From NCBI RefSeq assembly GCF_009914755.1, contig NC_060943.1: DNA of 64,000 bases; one strand, 5' to 3'. Under the pieces are notes generated by a model. It had not been told where the DNA came from, made no database searches, and saw only the letters and a list, made by a program, of their open reading frames with translations. Shown here one piece after another: positions 1-16,180 of the stretch; position 1 is the first letter of the stretch; the number at the start of each line of letters is the position of its first letter. The position numbers and the translations under genes were made by a program. This DNA comes from the human T2T-CHM13v2.0 reference genome, Homo sapiens.

Positions 1-1207
1 CAAAAAAACCTAACAAATTCTGGACTTAAATTTGACACTAGACCTAGACCAATCAGATATAATAGACATCTACAGAATACGTCATCCAAGAACCCCACAT
101 TATGTATTTATCTCATTCACACATGGAACATACTCCAAGATTGACCACATGCTTGGCAATAAGTCAAGTCTAAATGAATTTTTTAAAAAATCAAAATTAT
201 ATCAAGCATACTATTGGACCCCAGTATATTAAAAGTAGCAATCAATACCAAAAGAAACTCTCAAAATCACAAAATTACATGAAATCTAAACAACTTGATC
301 ATTATTGAATTTTGGGCAAACAATGAAATTAAAGCAGAAATGAAGACTTTTTTGAAGCTAATTAGACACAGCAAACCTAAATCTCTGGGAGGCAGCTAAA
401 GCAGTGTTAAGAGGAAAATTTATAGTGCTAAATCCCTTTATGAAAAAGTTAGAAGATCCCCAATAAACGACCTAACAGTGCAACTGAAGGAACTAGAGAA
501 AAAAAAATCCAACCCAAAAGCTAGTAGAAGAAAAGAAATAACTAAAATAAGAGGAGAATGAAATGAGACTGAGATGCAAAAGGCCATACAAAAGATCAAT
601 GAAACCAGGAGCTTGCTTTTGAAAGGAATAGATTGGTACACCATTAGCTAGATTAATCAAGAAAAAAAAAGAATCAAAATAAGCACAATCAGAAATAAAA
701 AAGGTGATATTAAAACTGATCCCGCAGAAATCTGAAAGATCCTCAGAGACTCCAAACCAAATCCAGTAGCAAATTCAAAAGTTAATTCACCATAATCAAG
801 TAGGCTTTATTCCTGGGATACAGGGCTGGCTCAACATATGCAAATCAATAAATAAAATTCACCACATAAACAGGATGAAAACTAAAAACATGATTGTCTC
901 AATAGATTCAGCAAAAACGTTTGATGGATTTCAGCTTCCTTCATGATAGAAACCCTCAACAAAGTAGGCATCGAAGGAATATAACTCAAAAGAATCAGAA
1001 CCCTCTGTGACAAACCTACAGCTAACATTGAAATGATGGGTAAAGCTCAAACCATTCCCCTTGATAACTGGAAGAAGACAAGAATTCAGACTCTCCCAAC
1101 TCCTATTAAACATAGTACTGGAAGTCTTAGCTAGAGCAAACAGCAAGAGAAATAAATAAAAGGTGTCCAAATTGGAAGAGAGGAAGTCAAATTATTCCAT
1201 TTGCTGA
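1..1207 (+). mobile_element. Old LINE-1 ORF2 fragment (endonuclease end to RT), disrupted, with an internal deletion near 750
   Basis: ORF 32..232 (DIYR...HGTYSKIDHMLG) is L1 endonuclease. Downstream RT-region motifs include CATAATCAAGTAGGCTTTATTCCTGGG and GAAGTCAAATTAT. Confidence 0.9.
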
Positions 1208-1209
1208 TG

Positions 1210-4200
1210 GCTTTCTATCCTGGGTTCTCTATTCTGTTCCACTGGTCTTTGGTGTGATTTATTTTGGAGAATATTTCATGTGCAGATGAGAATAATGTAT
1301 ATCCTGCCATTGTGTAAAATGTTCTGAAAATGCCTGTTGGGTTGATTTGGTCTGAAGTCTAATTTAACTGCAATGTTTCTGTGCTGATTTTCTGCCTCAG
1401 CATTGTCAACAGTGTTAATACCCCATTATTATTGCTGTCTATCTGTTCTCTTAGGTCTATCAGTATTTGTTTTATGAATATGGGTGCTCCAGCATTGGGT
1501 GCATATACATTTAGATAGTTATGTCTTCTTGTTGAATTGAGCCCTTTGTTATTATGTAATAATCTTCTTTTTTTAATGCTGTTGATTTAGTCTGTTTTAT
1601 TTCATATAAGTTTGGCTATTTCAGCTCATTTTGGTTTTCCATTTGTGTGGTATATCTTTTCCCACTGGTTTTCTTTGAGGCTTGGCTTTTTACCATTAAA
1701 GCGTGTCTCTTGTAGGCAGCAAATGTTTGGATCTTACTTTTCTTATTTAATTTGCCAGTCTATATCTTGTAAGTGGAATATTTAGGCCAATTACACTCAG
1801 GGGTAATATTGAAATGCAATGTTTTTATTGCTGTCATAATGTTTTTACCTGGTTGTTTTGTAGCAACAATTGTATAATTGCTTTATAGACTCTGTGATCT
1901 TTTTACTTATGTGTGCTTTTATGATGGCAAATTTTGTCCTTTTATTTCTGTCTTTAGAACTCTTTTGAGCATTTCTTGTAAGTCCAGTCAAGAGGTGACA
2001 AATTCCCTTAGCATTTGCTTGTCTGAGAAATACTTTATTTCTCCTTCATTTATGAAGCTTAATTTAGCCAAAGCCAAAGGTTTTGGTTGGCAGTTCTTTG
2101 CTTTAAGAAGACAGAAAATCGAAGCCTGATCTCTTCTGGGTTGTACAGTTTTTGCCAAGAAGTCCACTGTCATTCTGATGAGACAGTCTTTATAGGTGCT
2201 TTGATACTTCTCTCTAGCTGATTTCAGCATTTGTTCCTTTATGTTAACTTTGGTTTGTCTGATGAATATATGCCCTGGTGAGATCCATCTTGCAGAAAAT
2301 CTTTCAGGTGTTATTTGCACTTCTTATATCTGAATGTCTAATTCTGTATCTAGATCAGAAAAGTTTCTTGAGTTAACTAATCAGATACATTTCCCATGCT
2401 TTTTACTGTTTCTTCTTCTCACTCAGAAATGCCCATAGCTTGTAGGTTTGATTACTTTACATAATCCCACATTTCTTGAGGGCTTTTTAAATTTTTTATA
2501 TTCTTTTTTTCCTAATTTTCTTATGACTGGGTTAATTCAAAGGACTGGGCTTTCAGGTCTGAAATTCTCCCTTCTGCTTGTCTGGTTTATTGTTAAAATC
2601 TTCAACTACATTTTATAATTCCTTCAATGAATTTTTCACTTCCAGAAGTTCTGTTTCTTTTTTAAATATCTCTTTAGTAAATTTTGTATTAATATCCTTA
2701 ATTGTTATTCTGATTTCTTTATGTTGGTTTTCAACTTTCTCTTGGATCTCATTGAGCTTCCTTACAATAAAAAAAATTTGAATTTTTTTTTATGTGTCAC
2801 TTTAGTTTTATTTGTTAGAATCCATTGCTTCAGAACTGCTGTGATCCTTTGTGGGTGTCAAAACACTCTGTCTTTCTGTACTGCTGAAGTTCTCACATTA
2901 TTTCTCATTTATAGAAGCTGTCACTTAGTTATTTTCTATTTGCTTTCATTTGAAGAACATTTTCAATTTTCAATTCTTTTCTCTTTTGGGGGTGTGATTA
3001 TATGTTGTGTGTAATCATTTGGCTTCAATTCTGGGTGCCTTCAGGGGGCTAAGGCTCTAGATGAGTTTCTTGGTTATAGATAGTTTTTGTGCAGTGGCTT
3101 TCTCAAATGCTGATTGTTGTACCAATATATTGGGCATATAATTTGACTCACTATCTTTTGCAGGGCTGGGAGTGCAGAAGCCTCAGGAAGATTATCTCAT
3201 TCCCTAGTATCATGCCCTTCTGCCAACAGGTTTTGTATATGGTTATGCAGTTCAGTTTACGGTTTAGTAGTTGGCACTTACTAGCAGACACTGGCTTGTT
3301 GTTTTGACAATTTGATGACTAGCAAAAGCCCCTCCCCTGAAGGGGGTGGTGGGAAAGCTCACTGTGGGATGCACACAGGTCTCTGCCAAGTGGTAGAGGT
3401 GTGAAGGGTGTTGCACTAGCTCCTCATCCTAGGGATGTAACTTACATCCCTATCTACTCCTGTTCAAGGGCTCACAACCTGCAGTTCAGATAGACAATGT
3501 CCTTTATCTCCACGCTGCAATGCAACTAGGTTTCGTAGAAAACATTCATCCTGTGGCTACAGCTGAAAGGGCCTCTGGAAAAAACCTCTTCCCACAGCTT
3601 GAAATAGACAGCTGTAGCTGGTCTATACTCTGTAGCTGGTTCATTCTATGGTGCAGAAATGCTGCTGCTTTGTATGGGGAGGAAGAGATAAGTCCCACCC
3701 TTTGAGCAAGTCCAGGTTGGTGGGGACACTTTCAACTGGGGTGCAGCTGCCCTAAGTGTACTGAAAAGCCTGTTTCCAAGTGCATCCACACAAACCCCCA
3801 GCAGAAAACGTCATGATTGTGTCTGCAGCAGTGATGGAGACAGCAAAAGATGCCTTTTCCATTTCAGTTCCCAGCCAATGGTACCACCTGTCCTTTGGGA
3901 CAAGACAATACTCCTAATTTTCAAAGATCAGCATTGCACCTGTGTCTCTGCTAGGAGAAATACAGCCATTTTCTGGTTATAAGTGGGGAGGGGGGCTCTC
4001 CATCAGGGAAGAATGTGCATTCCAGTTTCCTTTGTCCCAAAATGTGCTCTGGTGGACTACAATCCCCCTTCCCTAGTGAAGGCCTGTATCAAAGGCTAGG
4101 TCTCTAAGGATCTTGCAGCTCCCCAAGGTCCTGCTGGTTCTCTGTGGTTGCCGTAGGCAGAAGAGGTTCTGGGAAATGTTTGTGTGGGATATAGTCATGC

Positions 4201-4690
4201 AGAGAGACACAAGGGCTAAAATTATCTGGACCGAATAGAGGCCCCAAACAGATGTACAGTCTGTATGGTGCTCACCACCTCAGCTCGGGTTTGAGGGGGA
4301 GAGCAAGCAAACCTATGTGAACTCACCACCCAGTGCTCTGCCCTCCAGAAGTTCCCCAATCACTGCCAACAGTGGTGCCTGCGTTTGCAAGGGCAGAGGG
4401 GCTCTCAGACAAATTGGTGGCAATGAGTTGGGTACAAGAGTGAGGATAAAAAGACACACTCCCATCTACACTTTCCATGGGACTCCAAGTTCCTCATGGG
4501 TCAGTCTCTGCCAGACATTTATGCCCTTTTTTTTTCCTGTACCCCCAACTTCTTCCTGTGGGTTCTCCAAAGGTTTCCGACACTTTTCCCTCAGCAGTCC
4601 ACTTGGGCCATGATTATTCACCTGTAAGGTTAAATCTTCTTTCTAAGGAGAACTGGTATCTGATGTCTCTAGTAAGCCATCTTGAAAAAA
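1210..4690 (-). mobile_element. Old LINE-1 (L1PB/L1M-type) 5' half: 5'UTR, ORF1 and start of ORF2, degenerate
   Basis: ORF 1988..2320(-) matches the L1 ORF1p C-terminus (AKLSFINEGEIKYFSDKQMLREFVT). The 5' terminus reads CAAGATGGCT on the minus strand at ~4685. Confidence 0.88.
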
Positions 4691-4737
4691 ATCACGATTT
4701 TCATTCTTTATTCTGTTAATGTGATTTATCACAATTA

Positions 4738-5132
4738 TTTTTATTTAGCTTTATTGAGGCAAAGAAATAAGACAAATAAAATTGCGTATATTTAAAATGT
4801 ACAACATGATGATTTGAAGTAAATATATATTGTGAACTGACTGCTGCAGTCAAGTTAATTATCATATTCACTACTTCAAGGACTTAATTTTTTTCTTTCA
4901 TTTTGATGAGAATGCTTAAGGTCTACTCTTAGAAAATTTCAAAGTATATAATTTAGTATTATTAACTGTAGTCACCATGCTTTACATTATATTCTCAGAA
5001 CTTACTTATCTTAGAATGGTAAGTTTGTATACTTTGGCCTACATCTCCCAATTTGACCCGCCCCTAGACCTTATCAACTACCATTCTACTTTATTTCTAA
5101 GAACTCAATTTTATTGTTTTATATTCCACAGT
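4738..5132 (-). mobile_element. L1M (L1MA/MB-type) 3' UTR end; left piece of the L1 interrupted by the MAN1A2 retrocopy
   Basis: Typical 3'-end sequence (GCTTTATTGAGG...TTAACTGTAGTCACCATGC...ACTACCATTCTAC). It stops at ...TATTCCACAGT and resumes at 14091. Confidence 0.8.
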
Positions 5133-5227
5133 CACTTCTTTTGCTTTAAAATGAATTATGTAAATTACAGCACAGAGAAAAGAGGCAGAAAGAAGGCTAA
5201 AGGGTTTTACACTACTTAATCTTGGGA

Positions 5228-5442
5228 TTGGGGTAAAAATTATGACCTGTGGGTCAAATGCAGTCCTTTACCTGTTTATGTAAATAAAGCTTTATCGGAA
5301 CACAGCTATACTCATTCATTTACATAATATCTGTATCTGTTTTCACACTTCAACAGCAGAACTGAGTAAGAAGAAAGACTGTATAGCTCATATAACCTAA
5401 AATATTTATTATCTGCCCTTTGCAGAAAAGCTTTCTGACTAG
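5228..5442. mobile_element. MER58A-like hAT-Charlie DNA transposon remnant
   Basis: GTAAATAAAGCTTTATCGGAACACAGC...CCTAAAATATTTATTATCTGCCCTTTGCAGAAAAG resembles the MER58 consensus. Confidence 0.75.
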
Positions 5443-5564
5443 TTGTAAATTAAAAAGAGCATCTTCATCATAATCTGAATGAGCTGAAGTAACACAAAAT
5501 CATCTTCACCAATGTTCTTGAGCCAGAGTAAGTGGATTGATATATTTCCATATCATATGTGGTT

Positions 5565-6277
5565 TGTATTAGTCAATATTGTGTTGCTATAAAGGAATAC
5601 TTCGGACTGGGTAATTTATTTTATTTTTATTGATTTATTGTTTTTCCAAGACAGGGTCTCACTATCACCACTGGTATACAGTGGCACAATTTTGGCTCAC
5701 GTAACTGCCACCTTCCAGGTTCAAGCGATTCTCCCACCTCAGTCTCCCATTTGCTGGAACTACAGGAGCACGCCACCATGTCTGGTTAATTTTTGTATTT
5801 TTAGTAGAGGCGGGATTTCACAATATTGGCCAGGCTCAAACTCCTGACCTCAAGTGATCTGCCTGCCTAGGCCTCCCAAAGTGCTGGGATTACAGGCATG
5901 AGCCACCAGGCTCAGCCCCTATTTTTAAAATAGGTTAATTTACCTCACAGTTCTGCAGGCTATACAAGCATAGTGCCACTATCTGCTTTAGGCCAGGACC
6001 TCAGGAAGCTCCCACTCATGGCAGATGGCAAAAGGGAACAGGTTTGTCACACGGTAAGAGAGGGAGCCAGAGAGATGCCATGCTCCTTTAAGCCACCAGC
6101 TCTCATGTGAACTAACAGAGCAGGGACTTGCTCATTACCATAGGGAAGGCAGCACCGAGCCATTCATGAGGGATCCATACCATCACTCAAACACCTTCCA
6201 CCAGGCCTCACCCCTCTGACACTGGGGATCACATTTCAACATGAGATCTGGAGGAGAGAAATATCCCAACCATATCA
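5565..6277 (-). mobile_element. MST-type MaLR solo LTR, interrupted by an Alu
   Basis: Termini TGTATTAGTC...GCTATAAAGGAATAC and TTTCAACATGAGAT...CCATATCA, with GGTT on both flanks. Confidence 0.85.
5630..5918 (-). mobile_element. Alu inside the MST LTR
   Basis: Reverse Alu, ending CCCAAAGTGCTGGGATTACAGGCATGAGCCACC. Confidence 0.95.
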
Positions 6278-6404
6278 GGTTACTCAAACATTCTGCTTAG
6301 AATTTGTGCAGCCAAAACTAGTTACCAACTGTGTTTGTTAAATAAAAAATGGTATTAAAAATTTTTGTGTATAACTAAAAAATTATACAGATAGGTATAG
6401 AGAA

Positions 6405-6422
6405 AGAGAAAGGGAAGAGGGA

Positions 6423-6460
<38 letters not shown>
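6405..6460. repeat. (GA)n microsatellite
   Basis: Directly visible. Confidence 0.95.
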
Positions 6461-6462
<2 letters not shown>

Positions 6463-7827
6463 CTATCCAATTTGAGTGTAAGGAAATCTAAAAAAAAATA
6501 AGAACTTAAAATCCTATTACTAGAAACTGCTTTTTGAAACCTAGAAATATTTTATTATATTTTTCTTTATATTTAACAGCATGGGACTGTTAGTAGGACC
6601 CCTACCAAAGACAATTTACAACTTCAAGTTTTACCCACCAATGATGTGACAAAAGCTTTTTGAATTTAAACTAAGCAGCACTTCTATTAAACATTGATTT
6701 TAATAATATAATTGAAGTGATATAGCAAACTAAAAATGTTTTTATTTCTAAAGTAAATATTTTAGTCAAAGTTGCATCAAAAATCAAGCACTTCTGTGAC
6801 ATTTTTCAAGACTTTAACCACAATTATAGTTAGTACTACATAGTACACATTATTTAAAATGTATTATAAACCTTTTCTCTTTATATGAAATATAAAATTT
6901 AAAATGCTGTAACATGATTCATATTGAAAAACATGTAAAATTGTATACACTGCTCTCATACAGAAAGTGCCACTGGAATCACATAAAACTTTCTAATGCT
7001 TTAAGGTGCCAGGCACAGTGCTTGGCACATATTACATACTTCATAAATGTTTGTTCACTCATTCTCTCATTTACTCATGTACTCAAAGAAATACGGGCTT
7101 AAGGAGAAACTGCATTATAATGAGAACTGAAAGCACAATCTTTTATCAACAAACTTGGAGTTTTGACAAAGACTTTGACAGAGAGTGGAGCAGATGAGAG
7201 GATGATAATCAAGATTTCAAACTCCTTGGTTAAAATCTACTAAGTAAAGCCCTGGGTTCACAAGATGACATCATAGAGAATCAGAGTCAATACTCCACAA
7301 AAAGAATGCATTCTTTCAATACCCAGGTTGGACTTTTATATATAACCATCTGCTTGAAGCTGGGAATAAGTCGTGTTAGAAGTAAAACACACAGTCCACC
7401 GGCAGGTAAGAACCACCTGATGGGGGACTTGTTTTTCTGCGCTGAGACTTCTTTTCAGGTAGGGTCTCATTCTCTTGGTTTTGACAACTTAATACAAGTT
7501 GAATTAAAAAAAAAAACTGGCTTAACCCAAAAAGTTTTATTTTAAAATAAAGATAAATAAATGTAGAAGGTAGAGGGGTGTTTAACATTCCTATTTTTTT
7601 CCTGTTATGCACGAACCAATCCATCTATTCTGCATATTTGTGCCAAAGTCACAATGTGAGGTGTCAACTTTTTGAGGAGCATTTCTGGGCTATTTGCGGA
7701 AGGTCTGATAAATGCAGTATTTTACCAGAGTAATAAGGTCTACAAAATGCAAAAAGCTGTAAAAAAGAGAAGAAAGTATGGGTACTAAGCAGAATATAAG
7801 ATAAAAATTGATCTTGGAGGAAATTTA

Positions 7828-7902
7828 CCTATTTTCTGTTTGCCCCAAGAATACCGTGCTGGCAGCAAGATGCACTTTATTTTTTCCTAAATGGGAAACG
7901 GG
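7828..7902 (+). mobile_element. MER75-family piggyBac miniature element (~75 bp, MER75A-like)
   Basis: CCTATTTTCTGTTTGCCCCAAGAATAC...GCTGGCAGCAAGATGCACTTT...TAAATGGGAAACGGG has imperfect TIRs and is flanked by TTTA/TTAA, the piggyBac target site. Confidence 0.75.
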
Positions 7903-8006
7903 TTAAACATCTGTAACAAAAATAAAACATAACACTGGCAAGTCACTTGCAGCTGGCCTGAATTGTCTTTGGTATTCAGAGAAGGGAAAAAAAAAAAAAA
8001 ATGGAG

Positions 8007-8438
<432 letters not shown>

Positions 8439-10304
8439 TCATCTGAGTAATACAAAGAGAGCCGTTGGAGATACAGGTTGTATCTCCTCATCTCTTGAGA
8501 ATTTCCTGGGAAACCAAGAAGGCCTCTTTACTCTGCATTCTTATAAACAAATTAAGAGTTTGGAGACTTCATTGCCATCTGCACAGCTTCTCTGGGTCTT
8601 TGCCAATTAAACTTTCTTGCCTTTTTTTTTTTTAGTGATTCCTAAGTGGGCTTGTGCTATTTTTAGCAAGGCTTTTTTGAGAACCAAGTACTTTCCCTTT
8701 TCTCTTCTAAAGTTATGGTCATCTACCTTTATCATTTAAACAATTTAAAGGTTTAAGTAGTAAAAAAATTACAATCTCAAAATATGTCCTAAAATTTGAC
8801 TCTCTTAAAGACTTTATTGTAACTGGCTCTACATCCTTATTTTCTATGTTTACTAAAAACTTTTGTAGTGGTTGTCATTTATGCATCATTGGCTGGGCTG
8901 TGAGAACTGTTTAATAATTTGTGGTCTGAGATGATCAACCTTGGAAAATATTTAATTGTATTCATTCATTAAATCTTTTCCCAACTTAAATCTAAAAGCT
9001 AAGTTGAAAAGAAATGTTATCAAATACGGAAATAAGCCTTCAGAATTCCAAGTTGGATTTCTTGTATGAACTTTTTTGTCTCATTAAACTTTGTTTAATG
9101 AGACAAAATCTTTAAATTCAGAGTAAATATCATACTAGTTATACTGTTTCCAATTTTATTAATGTCAATGGACGATGTCTAAATTAAACAATAAAAAGTC
9201 CCTTCAGTTTATGTGACAGAAAATGCGTGAGCATTAGATATTTATCTTACACCATAGTTACTGATAATTTTTTTTGCCAAAATATAAAGAATTAGTAATT
9301 TCTTTAAAAAGAAATAACAATGCAAAACCTACTGATGGTAAGAGAAAATCCCTGAGATACTTACTTCAACACTTTTATCACTGAAAACGATTTTGAAGCT
9401 ATTCTAATTATTTTGATTTCTATAAAGATCAATAGAAAAAATTTTAAAAACATAAAATATTTGTGAATGGCACACTCACCTGATAAGATAATAAAGGATA
9501 TCATCCCAGATAGAATATTTAAGAAAGTTGCACTGTGTTTTGTTTTTGCTTTAATGAGTTGTAAAAGTAATTTAGCTTATCAAGACAAATTCAGAGCTAC
9601 ATAATAGTATCGTGAATTTTGCCAAGTCACATAAATAAAGTTGTGAGTTGGATGACTCTCCTAACGTTATTATGAGATTTAAGTGGATAAAACTTGCTCG
9701 GTAGATTTATTAGTTCAGAAAAATAATCTCCTACCAGCAAAACCAAGAATTTCTTTTAGAACAGGTTTCAAGGCAACAAACTGTGGCATTTTTCCGCACT
9801 TTTTGTCATGCTACCACCACTGACTGAACCACCTGAATTAAGTCTCAAACTCAGGCTTATAGGTAGTGGTTATGACAAATAGCAGTTTTAATGATTTCAT
9901 ATGAAGACAAAGACTTAAAGAGTATTTTTTGTGAGATCATGCCCCTAGAAGAAACTAAACTTAACCATGAAATTTAAATGAAATAGATTTTATTTAAACC
10001 GATTAAACAGGATTTGAAATGGTTGCCAGTCTGGTCATCCAATAGGGAACTTGAAAATTCAGACATGGATTGGCACTTCTGTTTGTTTTTTGAGTCTTCT
10101 TGTCACTGATGCAGTTATACTATATTTTTTCTTTATCTTAGTTCATTACATTACTAAAATGGAGAAAAATGAGACAATGTGGAATATTTGACAGTTGCTC
10201 CACTGTAGGAATATATAATAGGTTCCAAAGGCCATTCTTAACTCCTGCAATGTGCTCTATATTCTTGGCTTTCTCTTAGGAAGTCTAGCCTCCAGACTTC
10301 AGAG

Positions 10305-10315
10305 CTCTACAAACC

Positions 10316-10364
<49 letters not shown>

Positions 10365-10493
10365 AATATATGTAACTCTCTCTAAATATAAAACTCTCTA
10401 TATAACTCTCTATATACATAGAGTTATATAGAGTTTTATATAGTTATATATATATATATATACATATATTTAAAATATATATGGTTTGTAGAG
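10305..10493. repeat. (TG)n/(TA)n simple repeat enclosed in an inverted repeat
   Basis: 10305-10323 is the exact reverse complement of 10475-10493. Confidence 0.9.
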
Positions 10494-10496
10494 TAC

Positions 10497-10530
10497 TTGG
10501 TGGTGTAAAAGTAATTGCGATCTTTGCTGT
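10497..10530 (+). mobile_element. Half of a MADE1 (Hsmar1 mariner MITE) TIR
   Basis: TGGTGTAAAAGTAATTGCGATCTTTGC compared with MADE1 TGGTGCAAAAGTAATTGCGGTTTTTGC. Confidence 0.65.
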
Positions 10531-10655
10531 AACACACATCATTCTTATATGACCACTATCATGTTGACTTAGAGGTCTAGGTTTTCAGACTACATTCTAT
10601 AGTGGTCCACGTAAAACAAAACAGGTGAGACTGGTCCTGGTCCTCGGAACTGCTT

Positions 10656-12847
<2,192 letters not shown>

Positions 12848-13299
12848 CGTTTATGCTCTTGAAGCTTACAGCAAATGCACGATACATTGAACTGTCTTCA
12901 AAATCTTGGCAAAAATGGGAAAACTCAATTTTGCTCCACTTGAAGGACTGCTGCGCTTCTTCACAGGCACCTCTTTGACGCTCCTCCAATTCCATTCAGA
13001 AACGTGAGTGACCCCCCCCCCCACCCCCTTAAACGATCACAAGCTTATGTCCTGCGAGATCTCGTTTGCCCTTTGACTTTCAGGGCCCTATCGGGTTATC
13101 AGAAGACTCTTCATTCCTAGGGGTAGATCAGAGAAGTCACACTGCAAAGGAGCTGCCCCTTGGGGAGGTGCTCAAGGGTGGTCTTCTGCCCCAAAAGGGA
13201 GTCTGGCTAACTCTGAGAATTGCAGAAGGTTCACCATCTCTGGTCCTTCCATTCCAGAATCTCTTAACCTTAGTGGTGGAAAAAATAAGGGTCTCCACC

Positions 13300-14090
13300 G
13301 AAATCTCAAAACAGGGAGGAAGGTTTCCGGCCTCCCGGAGGCCAAGGCAGAGGCGCTGGGGGAAGGAGCAAGAAGGGACCAGCCGCCCGCGCTTCCCGAC
13401 GCTGCCAGGCAGGCTCCCGGGACGGGCAGAGCTCCGAGGCTGCCTCCGGGCAGTCACGTCCAACGTACCTGAGCCCGGCCAGCCGCTGTCGCTGTCGCCG
13501 CCGCACTCGCCTGTCCGGACGCACCTTCCTCCTCCTCCGCGGCCCCCGAGAAGCTGGGCGCGCAGGCAAGGGAGGCGCGGCGGCCCCTGCGGCTGGTCAG
13601 TTCACCAGGTGCCTGCTCCCGAGCGAGTTGCCACCGACCCCGCCGCGCCCGGCCGAGCCCCGCGCTCCGCAGCGTGGGAAGGAGCCGAGCAGAGACCCTT
13701 GCTCCGAGAGCCCGGGGTCGGCGCCTGCTCATTCCTCGCGCAGCCGTGGGGCAGCGGGTGGCCCCGGGCGCGCGCGAGCAGCCTCTTCTCTGGCACGCAG
13801 AGGCCGGCTCCGTGTCCTCGGCCAGCCGCCGTGGGGGCCTCCTCCGCGCTGCCTCGCGTGGTGCCCGGCTCGGCCTAGATGCGGCTGCTGAGAGATGGCG
13901 CCCACGCGCGGGGCTGCGGCCCAGCCTCTGCCTCCCCAGTACTGGTGGGCGCCGAACAGCTGCGGGGCGACACGCGCTGGGCTCACGCACGTTGGAGCCG
14001 GAGGGTGGGGCAGATGGGGCGCTTCCGGAACCCTCCCCGACTCGCGAGTGGGCGGCGCCGGCGGCGGAGCGTGGGGCGCGCTCCCTGGAG
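13300..14090. promoter_or_regulatory. CpG island at the 5' end of the retrocopy
   Basis: Very GC-rich, with dense CpG and CGCG and GC-box-like GGGCGG, in otherwise AT-rich, CpG-poor surroundings. Confidence 0.85.
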
Positions 14091-16180
14091 TCCACAGTTA
14101 AGTGACACAATCCTGGGTTTACCTTTCTCTGTCGGGATCATTTTTCTTAGCATGACGACCTCCAGGTCAGACACAAGGTCACAGGTGGCGGTTTCTGCCT
14201 TCCTCTGGCTGAATATATTTCATTAAATATATATTCCGCATTTTCTGTATCCAGTCATCCCTCTGTGGACTGATAGGTTGTTTCTGTGTCTTGGCTAGTT
14301 TAAATAATGGCGTAATAAACATAAAGTGCAGATTATCTCTTTAAGATACCGATTTCCTTTCCTTCAGACACATACTCAGAAGTGAGTTGTATTTTTAACT
14401 TTTTGAGGAACCTCTGTATGTTAGTTCATATGTCTGCACCAGTTTACATTCCCACCAACAGTGTACAAGGACTTCCCTTTCTCTACATGCTCTGCAACAG
14501 TTGTTCTCTCTTGTGAGGTGTTGGTGACTATTTTTAGTAATAGCCATTGTAACAGAAGTGAGATGGTATCTCATTGTGGTTTTGATTTGAATTTCCCTGA
14601 TAGTGATGTCAAGCATCTTTGTGTATTTATACCTGTTACTGATTTTTTAATTTTCTTGAAAAAAATGCCTATTCGGAAGATATACCTGTTTTTATTTGGG
14701 TGTTTTTTGTTTGTTTGTTTGTTTGCTATTAGGTTGAGTACCATATATATTTTGAATACTAACCTCTCATTAGATTATGGTTTGTAAATATTTCTCCTAT
14801 TCTGTGGGTTACCTTTTCATCTTGTTGATTGCGTCCTTTGCTGTGCAGAAGCTTTTTAGTTTGATATCATACCATTTGTCTATTTTTTATTATTTTGCCC
14901 GTGCTTTGTGGTATATACAAAAAATCTTTGCCAAGACAAATGTCAAGGAGCCTTTCCCTGTTTTCTTCTAGGAGTTTTACAGTTTCAGATCCTACACTTA
15001 AACCTTTAATCCATTTCAAATTGATTTTTGTATATGGCGTAAAATAAACAGTCTAATTTCTTTTTCTTCCTCCTACCTTCCTTTTTTTTCCTTTTATTTC
15101 TTCTTCTCTTTTTTTATTCTTGCATGTGAATATCCAGTTTTCCAAACATCGTTTATTGAAGAGACTATCCTTTTTCCATTGTGTCTCCTAGGCAACTTTG
15201 TCTAAAATAAATTGACCTTAAATGTGTGGGTTTATTTATGGGCTCTTTATTCTGTTCGATTGATTGCTATGTCTTTTCTTATGTCAGTATCATGCTGGTT
15301 TGATAAATATAGCTTAATAATATAATCTAAAAACAGGAAGAGTGTTGCTTCCAACTTTGTTCTCTCTCAAGAGTGCTTTGGCTGTTTAGAGCTTTTTGTG
15401 TTTCCACACATATTTTAGAATTATTTTTATTTATTCAAAAAAAGGTCATTGGAATTTTGATAGGAATTATATTGAATTTGTATGTTGCTGTAGGTAGTAT
15501 GGCAATTTTAACAATATTAATCATGAATGTGATACATATTTTATTTTTGTCTTCAGTATGTTTCATCAATATTTTATAGTGTTGAGTGTCTAGATCCTTC
15601 AAACCCTTGGTTAAATATCTTCCTAAGTGTTTTTTTTTAAATACTATTTAAATTGGATAGTTTTCTTGACTGCTTTTCAGGTAGGTCATTATGATGTAAA
15701 GAAGTGCAACTGATTTTTGTGTTGATGTTGTACCTAAAACTACTGAATTTATTCATTAGTTCTAACATTTTTTTGGGGAATTTGTTTTCTATGTATAGGA
15801 TCTTGCTATTTGCAGGGATAATTTTACTGCTTGTCCTCTGATATGGATGTCTTTTGTTTCTTTCTTTTTTTTTTTCTCTTGCCTAATTGCTCTCGTTACT
15901 ACTTCCAGTACCATGCTGAAAAGAAGTGGTGACAGCGGGCATTCTTGTCTTGTTCCTGACCTTAGAGGAAAAGTTTTAGTTTTCCCTGATTATTATGTTA
16001 ACTGTGAGTTTCTCATAGATGGCCTCTACTATATTGAGGAAATTTTCTTCTATTTCTAATTTGCCAGGAGTGTTAGATTTTTTCAAATGTTTTTTTCTGT
16101 GTCTATTGAGATAACCATGTGGTTTTTATCTTTCATTCTTTTAATGTGCTGTATCATTTGACTGATTTGTCTATGCTGAA
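14091..16180 (-). mobile_element. L1M (L1MA/MB-type) 3' UTR and 3' ORF2; right piece of the interrupted L1
   Basis: ORF 14395..14616(-) contains [14 protein letters not shown] (ORF2 C-terminus). It continues the consensus exactly where 4738-5132 stops. Confidence 0.88.

What the first reader, a model, noticed from the sequence alone, without database searches (positions are those of the whole stretch)
13300..14090. CpG island survives on an ancient, dead retrocopy: candidate co-opted orphan promoter
Seen: the MAN1A2 retrocopy CDS is heavily decayed, CpG-poor and carries an AluJ-like insertion, yet its 5' leader is still densely CpG-rich. Established: AluJ is the oldest dimeric Alu class, and methylated CpGs decay quickly by deamination. 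Inference: the island has stayed unmethylated in the germline for tens of millions of years. Retroposition may therefore have delivered a working promoter or Polycomb-type island into an L1-rich region, driving the pseudogene (-) and/or a divergent lncRNA (+).
Basis: partly seen in the sequence, partly recalled or inferred. Interest (0 to 1): 0.8.

Follow-up and report, generated by a model that had tools for sequence, protein, structure and literature searches.

The report
Parental promoter island on dead retrocopy
The CpG island is a copy of the MAN1A2 gene's own promoter region, carried to chromosome 19 on an ancient processed pseudogene and kept CpG-rich ever since; this kind of event is known, and nothing here shows the island was co-opted.

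Summary
Window 13300-14090 is a true CpG island: GC 0.75, CpG o/e 0.89, 98 CpGs, and the only island in the 64 kb.

It belongs to an 8,959-bp MAN1A2 retrocopy on the minus strand (5132-14090). The retrocopy is flanked by a 7-bp target-site duplication and splits one old L1.

About 570 bp of the island match parental DNA upstream of the RefSeq MAN1A2 start, not the annotated leader. The template RNA therefore began about 640 nt or more upstream and carried the parental promoter island with it.

Island CpGs survived about as well as other dinucleotides: 41/69 against 297/446. In CDS plus 3'UTR only 5/36 survived (Fisher p=8e-6). Identity to the parent is about 81%, so there was no recent gene conversion. 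The CDS never shows coding constraint.

Long germline hypomethylation is therefore supported. Promoter activity or co-option is not shown: RefSeq lists no transcript, and dense CpG DNA can stay unmethylated on its own. One paper lists the MAN1A2P1 island among the islands most hypermethylated in colorectal tumours, which fits a Polycomb-type orphan island.

This is a new member of a known kind, of modest interest.

The parts
13300..14090 (-). CpG island; the retro-copied MAN1A2 promoter island
   Evidence: GC 0.747, o/e 0.89, 98 CpGs. It is the only island in the window. It aligns to the parental locus L001 at about 1358-2230.
13519..14090 (-). Part of the island homologous to parental DNA upstream of the RefSeq MAN1A2 gene start (L001 about 1358-2000; start = L001 2001 = chr1:117376496)
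   Evidence: Pairwise alignment gives 543 aligned columns at identity 0.808. BLAST and genome search place it at chr1:117375857-117376279.
13300..13518 (-). Part of the island homologous to the first about 230 nt of the RefSeq 5'UTR
   Evidence: The ATG is at L001 2736, so the RefSeq 5'UTR is 735 nt.
5132..14090 (-). Whole MAN1A2 processed retrocopy (8,959 bp): upstream/promoter homolog, 5'UTR, all 13 exons without introns, and 3'UTR to parental locus index about 162398
   Evidence: BLAST against the 166-kb parental locus; end alignments. RefSeq annotates only 10586-13047.
5125..5131 (.). Target-site duplication TCCACAG, left copy
   Evidence: In 3 of 4 uninterrupted L1 copies, the left flank ends at copy position 506-507 and the right flank starts at 498-501.
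14091..14097 (.). Target-site duplication TCCACAG, right copy
12165..12468 (.). Old Alu inserted into exon 2 of the retrocopy. It serves as an internal control for methylated decay.
   Evidence: Matches Alus in the parental locus at 70-76%. It has 0 CpGs in 304 bp at GC 0.52.
12668..13093 (-). Second, low-density zone of CpG protection (distal 5'UTR and first codons)
   Evidence: 9 of 11 parental CpGs are kept, against 2/30 in exons 2-13 plus 3'UTR (Fisher p=7.7e-6). The shoulder between it and the island (13178-13381) keeps 1/16.
14041..14048 (.). CTCGCGAG palindrome conserved with the parent (L001 1396-1403)
   Evidence: Motif scan; alignment. Its link to the BANP motif TCTCGCGAGA rests on recall and a search listing.
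14098..14480 (+). Right half of the old L1 that the retrocopy split. The left half is about 4750-5124.
   Evidence: The genome search listed 40 matches (1 self, 39 elsewhere) from 1227 first-look candidates, at 67-77% identity. Flank contiguity is shown.

Best explanation
The island is the CpG-island promoter region of MAN1A2. It was copied to chr19q12 as the 5' end of a roughly 9-kb L1-mediated processed retrocopy.

The template RNA started at least about 640 nt upstream of today's RefSeq start, inside the upstream half of the parental island. The cDNA therefore carried the parental core-promoter DNA (shown).

Since insertion the dense CpG stretch has stayed unmethylated in the germline. Its CpGs have been lost and gained at roughly the rate of any dinucleotide, while the retrocopy body and an Alu about 830 bp away decayed as methylated DNA (shown). 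The insertion is tens of millions of years old by divergence, and predates an old Alu.

The most likely reason is an autonomous property of dense unmethylated CpG DNA, perhaps helped by a few retained sites (SP1 boxes, a CTCGCGAG palindrome). Selection for a new function is less likely (inferred).

Today it is most likely a weakly transcribed or silent orphan island of the poised, Polycomb type. It appears unmethylated in normal tissue and prone to tumour hypermethylation (inferred from one paper).
For: Origin:
- Homology runs uninterrupted from the CDS through the 5'UTR into L001 about 1358-2000, upstream of the RefSeq gene start.
- The genome holds only the parent and this copy.
- All 13 exons are joined without introns.
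- The 7-bp TSD and the two flanks are contiguous in 3 of 4 other L1 copies.

Hypomethylation:
- Island CpGs are kept 41/69, against non-CpG dinucleotides 297/446 (binomial p=0.20).
- The CDS keeps 5/23 against 1461/1822 (p=3e-9), and the 3'UTR keeps 0/13.
- Island against body gives Fisher p=8.4e-6.
- Turnover is symmetric: 25 of 66 retro CpGs are absent from the parent.
- A MAFFT re-alignment gives 47/92 against 365/671 (p=0.53).
- The Alu at 12165-12468 has 0 CpGs.

No conversion or constraint:
- Non-CpG identity is 0.866, 0.862 and 0.866 across the island, shoulder and distal 5'UTR.
- K2P non-CpG distance is 0.153 in the island and 0.164 in the 3'UTR.

Never a coding retrogene: differences by codon position are 74/619, 63/621 and 75/620.

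Autonomy:
- GC-rich DNA, even from E. coli, recruits PRC2 in ES cells (PMC3000368 abstract).

Polycomb type:
- The MAN1A2P1 CGI is among the top five CGIs hypermethylated in colorectal primary tumour against normal adjacent tissue (PMC7564781 passages).
- About 75% of cancer-hypermethylated genes are PcG-marked and bivalent in stem cells (PMC3337430 abstract).
Against:
- CpGs are kept somewhat less well than GpC: 41/69 against 66/89 (p=0.06), and 47/92 against 80/119 in the MAFFT alignment (p=0.023). Some methylation at some time is therefore possible.
- CpG protection is bipartite, with a decayed shoulder (1/16) between the island and a second protected patch (9/11). A simple autonomous-island model does not predict this.
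- The transgenic GFP island of PMC4509998 was hypermethylated in soma. This island seems unmethylated in normal colon, which hints at extra protection such as bound factors, Polycomb or transcription.
- No poly(A) tail is visible at the 3' junction, which is atypical for L1-mediated retroposition.
- An upstream parental TSS at about -650 is required but not annotated in RefSeq.
Confidence: 0.7

Rival explanations
1. Co-opted active promoter. The inherited island now drives a functional transcript, either the pseudogene RNA on the minus strand or a divergent lncRNA on the plus strand, and is kept by selection.
For: - The parental promoter DNA is present.
- Promoter inheritance by retrocopies is documented: 16 of 29 functional human retrogenes (PMC2386082 section 8) and about 3% of expressed retrocopies (PMC4772013 passages).
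- The island appears unmethylated in normal colon.
- CpG protection extends about 1.4 kb in the minus-strand downstream direction (9/11 kept at 12668-13093). H3K4me3 spreading downstream of a minus-strand TSS could produce this pattern.
Against: - RefSeq lists MAN1A2P1 as a non-transcribed pseudogene, with no other transcript or functional element within 50 kb on either side of the island.
- Non-CpG divergence in the island (K2P 0.153) equals that of the 3'UTR (0.164), so no constraint is seen.
- GC skew shows no directional signal.
- Few activator motifs are present: 2 SP1 boxes against 5 in the parent, and 0 NRF1, CRE, E-box or NFY (motifs recalled).
- Rfam finds nothing in 4000-16000.
- Two papers mention the locus and neither reports a transcript.
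Confidence: 0.15
2. Germline differentially methylated island. The island would be methylated in oocytes and unmethylated in sperm, like the islands of imprinted retrogenes or the PPP1R26P1 pseudogene in RB1.
For: - Pseudogene-borne islands can be gametic DMRs and promoters (PMC4537222, abstract start in the listing; PMC4509998 discussion passage).
- There is a mild CpG deficit relative to GpC.
Against: Known cases sit inside a host transcription unit, which is needed for oocyte methylation (recalled). RefSeq shows no host gene here. Nothing else was testable.
Confidence: 0.07
3. The island was refreshed by recent or partial gene conversion from MAN1A2, so its CpG richness says nothing about methylation history.
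For: None found.
Against: - Identity is 0.808 in the island, lower than the CDS (0.888) and 3'UTR (0.847).
- Non-CpG identity is flat along exon 1.
- 25 of 66 island CpGs are private to the retrocopy.
- The parental (GGA)n tract is absent from the retrocopy.
Confidence: 0.01
4. The island pre-existed at the chr19 site, or arose de novo there, and the retrocopy merely landed next to it.
For: Most retrocopy-associated CpG-island promoters are not parent-derived (about 86% novel; PMC4772013 passages).
Against: - The island aligns to the parental island along its whole length.
- It ends exactly at the target-site duplication at 14090/14091.
- The two flanks are adjacent parts of one L1.
Confidence: 0.01

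Closest known systems
Type I promoter-inheriting retrogenes (Okamura & Nakai 2008, PMC2386082; e.g. PABPC3 from PABPC1)
   Same: [quoted passage not shown] Both involve a CpG-island promoter with dispersed start sites (abstract and section 8).
   Different: Those are expressed, protein-coding retrogenes with capped-clone TSS evidence. Here the CDS is dead and no transcript is annotated. The carried upstream stretch (about 640 bp) is much longer than the TSS scatter they report (SD 66-108 bp).
Parent-inherited retrocopy promoters in Carelli et al. 2016 (PMC4772013; 6 human, 7 mouse, about 3% of expressed retrocopies)
   Same: The model is the same: a parental transcript from an upstream start carries a downstream promoter (Fig. 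2A legend passage).
   Different: Their set is defined by CAGE TSSs of robustly expressed retrocopies.
PPP1R26P1 pseudogene island CpG85 in RB1 intron 2 (PMC4537222)
   Same: A processed pseudogene delivered a CpG island that outlived the coding capacity of the copy (abstract start).
   Different: CpG85 is intragenic, a gametic DMR, and a proven alternative promoter. The island here is intergenic, with no function shown.
Retrotransposed marker CpG island and 'sloping shores' (Grandi et al. 2015, PMC4509998)
   Same: [quoted passage not shown] CpG retention beyond the island here resembles such a shore.
   Different: That marker was hypermethylated in soma, whereas this island seems unmethylated in normal colon. 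The decayed shoulder between the two protected zones is not a monotonic slope.
Orphan CpG islands / Polycomb-recruiting GC-rich DNA (PMC2944787, listing only; PMC3000368 abstract)
   Same: The island lies far from any annotated active gene start. It is GC-rich with few recognised activator motifs.
   Different: Chromatin marks and initiation, which define these classes, could not be examined.

Membership tests
CpG island (Gardiner-Garden/Frommer, Takai/Jones sequence criteria, recalled) | Length >=500 bp, GC >=0.55, CpG obs/exp >=0.65 | tested here: met
   791 bp, GC 0.747, o/e 0.89. The scan merges 13251-14230.
L1-mediated processed pseudogene | All exons of a multi-exon parent joined without introns, on another chromosome | tested here: met
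   13 exon matches in order, with the parent on chr1.
L1-mediated processed pseudogene | Target-site duplication flanking the insert | tested here: met
   TCCACAG at 5125-5131 and 14091-14097. The flanks overlap by 6-9 bp on 3 of 4 intact L1 copies.
L1-mediated processed pseudogene | 3' poly(A) tail next to the duplication | tested here: not met
   Parental homology runs to the junction. At most one A is present, and the copy ends about 1.4 kb before the RefSeq gene end.
Promoter-inheriting retrocopy (type I) | Homology to the parent extends upstream of the parent's start site | tested here: met
   About 640 bp upstream of the RefSeq gene start is aligned at identity 0.81. Only the RefSeq gene start was available as the TSS.
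Promoter-inheriting retrocopy (type I) | The retrocopy is transcribed from start sites inside the inherited sequence | not testable with these tools
   No CAGE or RNA data were available. RefSeq type is 'pseudogene' with no transcript.
Orphan CpG-island promoter | Unmethylated island away from annotated gene starts | tested here: inconclusive
   No active gene start lies within 50 kb on either side. The germline unmethylated state is inferred from CpG retention. The somatic state is inferred from one paper.
Orphan CpG-island promoter | Transcription initiation / H3K4me3 at the island | not testable with these tools
Polycomb-target (bivalent) CpG island | PRC2/H3K27me3 occupancy in ES cells | not testable with these tools
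   Only indirect evidence: tumour hypermethylation and the general association.
Polycomb-target (bivalent) CpG island | Depletion of activating transcription-factor motifs | tested here: inconclusive
   The island has 2 SP1, 1 ETS and 1 YY1-like motif, and 0 NRF1, CRE, E-box or NFY. The active parent is similarly sparse (motifs recalled).
Imprinted retrogene island (gametic DMR) | Lies within a host transcription unit | tested here: not met
   No RefSeq gene overlaps the site.

The most novel reading that the evidence does not exclude
The inherited MAN1A2 promoter island was exapted in the 19q12 gene desert as a real regulatory element, either a promoter of an unannotated minus-strand RNA or a Polycomb nucleation site. 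The two-part CpG protection (island plus a patch about 1 kb downstream on the minus strand) would then be the evolutionary footprint of germline initiation and H3K4me3 spreading. That would make it a retrocopy whose only surviving function is its promoter.
Probability: 0.15. Interest if true: 0.5.

Novelty: new member of a known kind. Interest (0 to 1): 0.3.

Why it matters
The locus is a clean natural experiment. One dated insertion put a gene's promoter island into an L1 in a gene desert, with the rest of the insert and a nearby Alu serving as built-in methylated controls. It shows that an island can stay CpG-rich for tens of millions of years with no detectable sequence constraint and no coding function. 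This bears on whether orphan islands need selection to persist. It also explains the origin of an island that turns up in cancer methylation screens. It shows that the RefSeq pseudogene model covers about a quarter of the real retrocopy. It implies an old or unannotated MAN1A2 start site about 650 nt upstream of the annotated one.

Tried and rejected
- GC skew along the island and the parent: values lie mostly between -0.23 and +0.13, with no directional switch. It gives no clue to a TSS or strand.
- Rfam at gathering threshold on 4000-16000: 0 matches.
- Recalled activator motifs: too few to discriminate, and the ETS and YY1-like sites are not shared with the parent.
- Flank BLAST against L1 pieces already in hand: no copy matched both flanks cleanly. 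I therefore used a genome search and four fetched copies. One of the four (L019) did not place the left flank.
- Exon-border search for the parental CDS: 528 open solutions. The best gives 633 codons with at least one mis-set border (a 16-nt unmatched stretch), so the codon-position counts are approximate.
- Primate orthologues, methylomes, CAGE and chromatin marks: no tool reaches them.
- Cohen, Kenigsberg & Tanay 2011 (Cell) is not held. Its title was seen only in a reference list, and its content is recalled.
- A genome-wide rate of island retention on old retrocopies was considered and dropped, because the fetch caps are too small for it.
- Supplementary tables of PMC7564781 (island coordinates and methylation values) and PMC4772013 (list of inheriting retrocopies) were closed. 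I infer that the paper's island is this one because it is the only island in the window and lies within the paper's 1.5-kb rule.

Full report
**1. The observation**

Window 13300-14090 is 791 bp with GC 0.747, CpG obs/exp 0.89 and 98 CpGs. The whole 64-kb window has obs/exp 0.21. A sliding scan finds this as the only island-like stretch in the window (13251-14230 once window-edge effects are merged). Bins on either side fall to 0-5 CpGs per 200 bp. The feature is real, sharply bounded on its high-coordinate side, and far beyond background.

**2. What it is attached to**

I fetched the 166-kb MAN1A2 locus from chr1. BLAST of the minus strand of window 1-16000 against it shows an intronless copy of all 13 exons. 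The 3'UTR follows, down to window about 5139.

Three Alu insertions interrupt the copy, at about 12165-12468, 7994-8305 and 5620-5942. RefSeq's MAN1A2P1 model (10586-13047) covers only about a quarter of this.

Upstream, homology does not stop at the parental start. Window 13518-12842 aligns to the 735-nt RefSeq 5'UTR. Window 14088-13519 aligns to L001 1358-2000, which is about 640 bp upstream of the RefSeq gene start (L001 2001 = chr1:117376496). MAFFT confirms this. A genome search with the island finds only itself and the parent.

**3. Boundaries of the insertion**

The 7-mer TCCACAG occurs at 5125-5131 and at 14091-14097, directly outside the two ends of parental homology. The outer flanks are two halves of one old L1. 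The right flank matched L1 copies elsewhere in the genome at 67-77% identity; 40 matches were listed, one of them the query itself.

I fetched four uninterrupted L1 copies. In three of them (L018, L020, L021) the left flank ends at copy position 506-507 and the right flank begins at 498-501. The fourth (L019) did not place the left flank.

The retrocopy is therefore one insertion, 5132-14090 (8,959 bp), into an L1. The island is its 5' end, and the island stops exactly at the duplication. This excludes a pre-existing island.

One hallmark is missing. There is no poly(A) at the 3' junction, and the copy ends about 1.4 kb short of the RefSeq 3' end.

**4. CpG history**

| Region | Parental CpGs kept | Comparison |
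|---|---|---|
| Island, upstream part | 41/69 (59%) | all other dinucleotides 297/446 (67%), binomial p=0.20 |
| 5'UTR | 21/42 | |
| CDS | 5/23 | other dinucleotides 1461/1822, p=3e-9 |
| 3'UTR | 0/13 | |

These counts come from gapped pairwise alignments with statistics.

- Island against CDS plus 3'UTR gives Fisher p=8.4e-6.
- Lost CpGs became TG or CA in 10/28 island cases, against 23/31 in the body (p=0.004).
- Turnover is symmetric: 25 of 66 aligned retrocopy CpGs are not CpG in the parent.
- An independent MAFFT alignment gives 47/92 against 365/671 (p=0.53).
- CpG is kept somewhat less well than GpC: 41/69 against 66/89 (p=0.06), and 47/92 against 80/119 (p=0.023). Protection may not have been perfect.
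- The Alu about 830 bp from the island's lower edge has 0 CpGs in 304 bp at GC 0.52.

The island has behaved as unmethylated germline DNA, and its neighbours as methylated DNA.

**5. Age and alternatives**

Identity to the parent is 0.808 (island), 0.817 (5'UTR), 0.888 (CDS) and 0.847 (3'UTR). K2P distance at non-CpG sites is 0.153, 0.180, 0.108 and 0.164 respectively.

With recalled neutral rates of about 1-2.2e-9 per site per year, this gives roughly 40-100 million years. That is consistent with an old Alu having inserted later.

Non-CpG identity is flat along exon 1 (0.866, 0.862, 0.866). This rules out a refreshed or converted tract. It also shows no detectable sequence constraint on the island.

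Differences are spread evenly over codon positions (74/619, 63/621, 75/620). Among single-difference codons, 45 are synonymous and 110 nonsynonymous. There are 7 premature stops and 16 frameshifting indels (the CDS reconstruction is approximate). The copy was never a working coding retrogene.

**6. Function**

No tool here reads methylomes, CAGE or chromatin. RefSeq types the locus as a plain pseudogene. It lists no transcript or functional element within 50 kb on either side of the island. Rfam finds nothing. GC skew and recalled activator motifs are uninformative. A CTCGCGAG palindrome and one SP1 box are shared with the parent.

Two papers mention MAN1A2P1.
- One places its island among the five most hypermethylated islands in colorectal primary tumours against normal adjacent tissue, with islands assigned to genes within 1.5 kb (PMC7564781 passages). 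This implies low methylation in normal colon.
- The other names it only as a neighbour of an association signal (PMC13364668 passage).

Tumour-hypermethylated islands are mostly Polycomb-marked and bivalent in stem cells (PMC3337430 abstract). GC-rich DNA lacking activator motifs suffices to recruit PRC2 (PMC3000368 abstract). [quoted passage not shown] CpG survival therefore does not require promoter use or selection.

**7. An unexplained detail**

Protection is bipartite.

| Zone (window) | Parental CpGs kept |
|---|---|
| Island, upstream part (14088-13519) | 41/69 |
| Shoulder (13381-13178) | 1/16 |
| Distal 5'UTR and first codons (13093-12668) | 9/11 |
| Exons 2-13 plus 3'UTR | 2/30 |

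The 9/11 against 2/30 comparison gives p=7.7e-6. A sperm-type sloping shore, or H3K4me3 spreading downstream of a minus-strand start, could explain the distal patch. Neither explains the decayed gap.

**8. Comparison with the known**

Retrocopies that carry the parental core promoter, because start sites are dispersed or an upstream start was used, are documented.
- 16 of 29 functional human retrogenes (PMC2386082 abstract and section 8).
- About 3% of expressed retrocopies (PMC4772013 passages).

A pseudogene-borne island with a life of its own is also known: PPP1R26P1 in RB1 (PMC4537222, abstract start).

This locus differs in three ways. The copy is dead, it is intergenic, and it carries an unusually long upstream stretch. 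I found no paper describing its origin.

**9. Verdict**

The origin and the long germline hypomethylation are well supported. Co-option as a promoter is not shown. The locus is a new member of a known kind, with interest 0.3.

Noticed in passing
window 5132-14090 against RefSeq 10586-13047: The RefSeq MAN1A2P1 model covers only the CDS and part of the 5'UTR. The retrocopy really spans 8,959 bp, including about 5 kb of 3'UTR and the promoter homolog.
   Followed up: yes
window 5125-5150: The retrocopy's 3' end abuts the target-site duplication with no poly(A) tail. It ends about 1.4 kb before the RefSeq gene end. Possible causes are internal priming, an alternative 3' end or tail loss.
   Followed up: partly
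window 12668-13381: CpG retention is bipartite: 1/16 kept at 13178-13381, then 9/11 kept at 12668-13093, with flat non-CpG identity.
   Followed up: partly
L001 about 1858-1910 (chr1, parental promoter): A (GGA)n-type purine repeat sits just upstream of the RefSeq MAN1A2 start and has no counterpart in the retrocopy. It probably expanded in the parent after the copy was made.
   Followed up: no
window about 13012-13028: A run of C on the + strand (G-run in the retrocopy's sense) is an insertion relative to the parental 5'UTR.
   Followed up: no
window 7994-8305 and 5620-5942: Two further Alu insertions lie in the retrocopy's 3'UTR. The first keeps 12 CpGs and matches other Alus at up to 84%, so it is much younger than the CpG-free Alu at 12165-12468.
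   Followed up: partly
window 14041-14048 and L001 1396-1403: The CTCGCGAG palindrome is conserved between the retrocopy island and the parental promoter. It resembles the core of the BANP/Kaiso-type motif TCTCGCGAGA (recalled; search listing). Its flanking bases differ from that motif.
   Followed up: partly
window about 4750-5124 and 14098-14480: The host of the insertion is an old L1 3' region, with copies elsewhere at 67-77% identity. I compared it as it stands only, to prove that the flanks are contiguous.
   Followed up: yes
chr19q12 around the window: A 2026 paper names MAN1A2P1 only as a neighbour of an association signal, which it links to methylation of UQCRFS1 (PMC13364668 passage). 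No connection to the island is shown.
   Followed up: no
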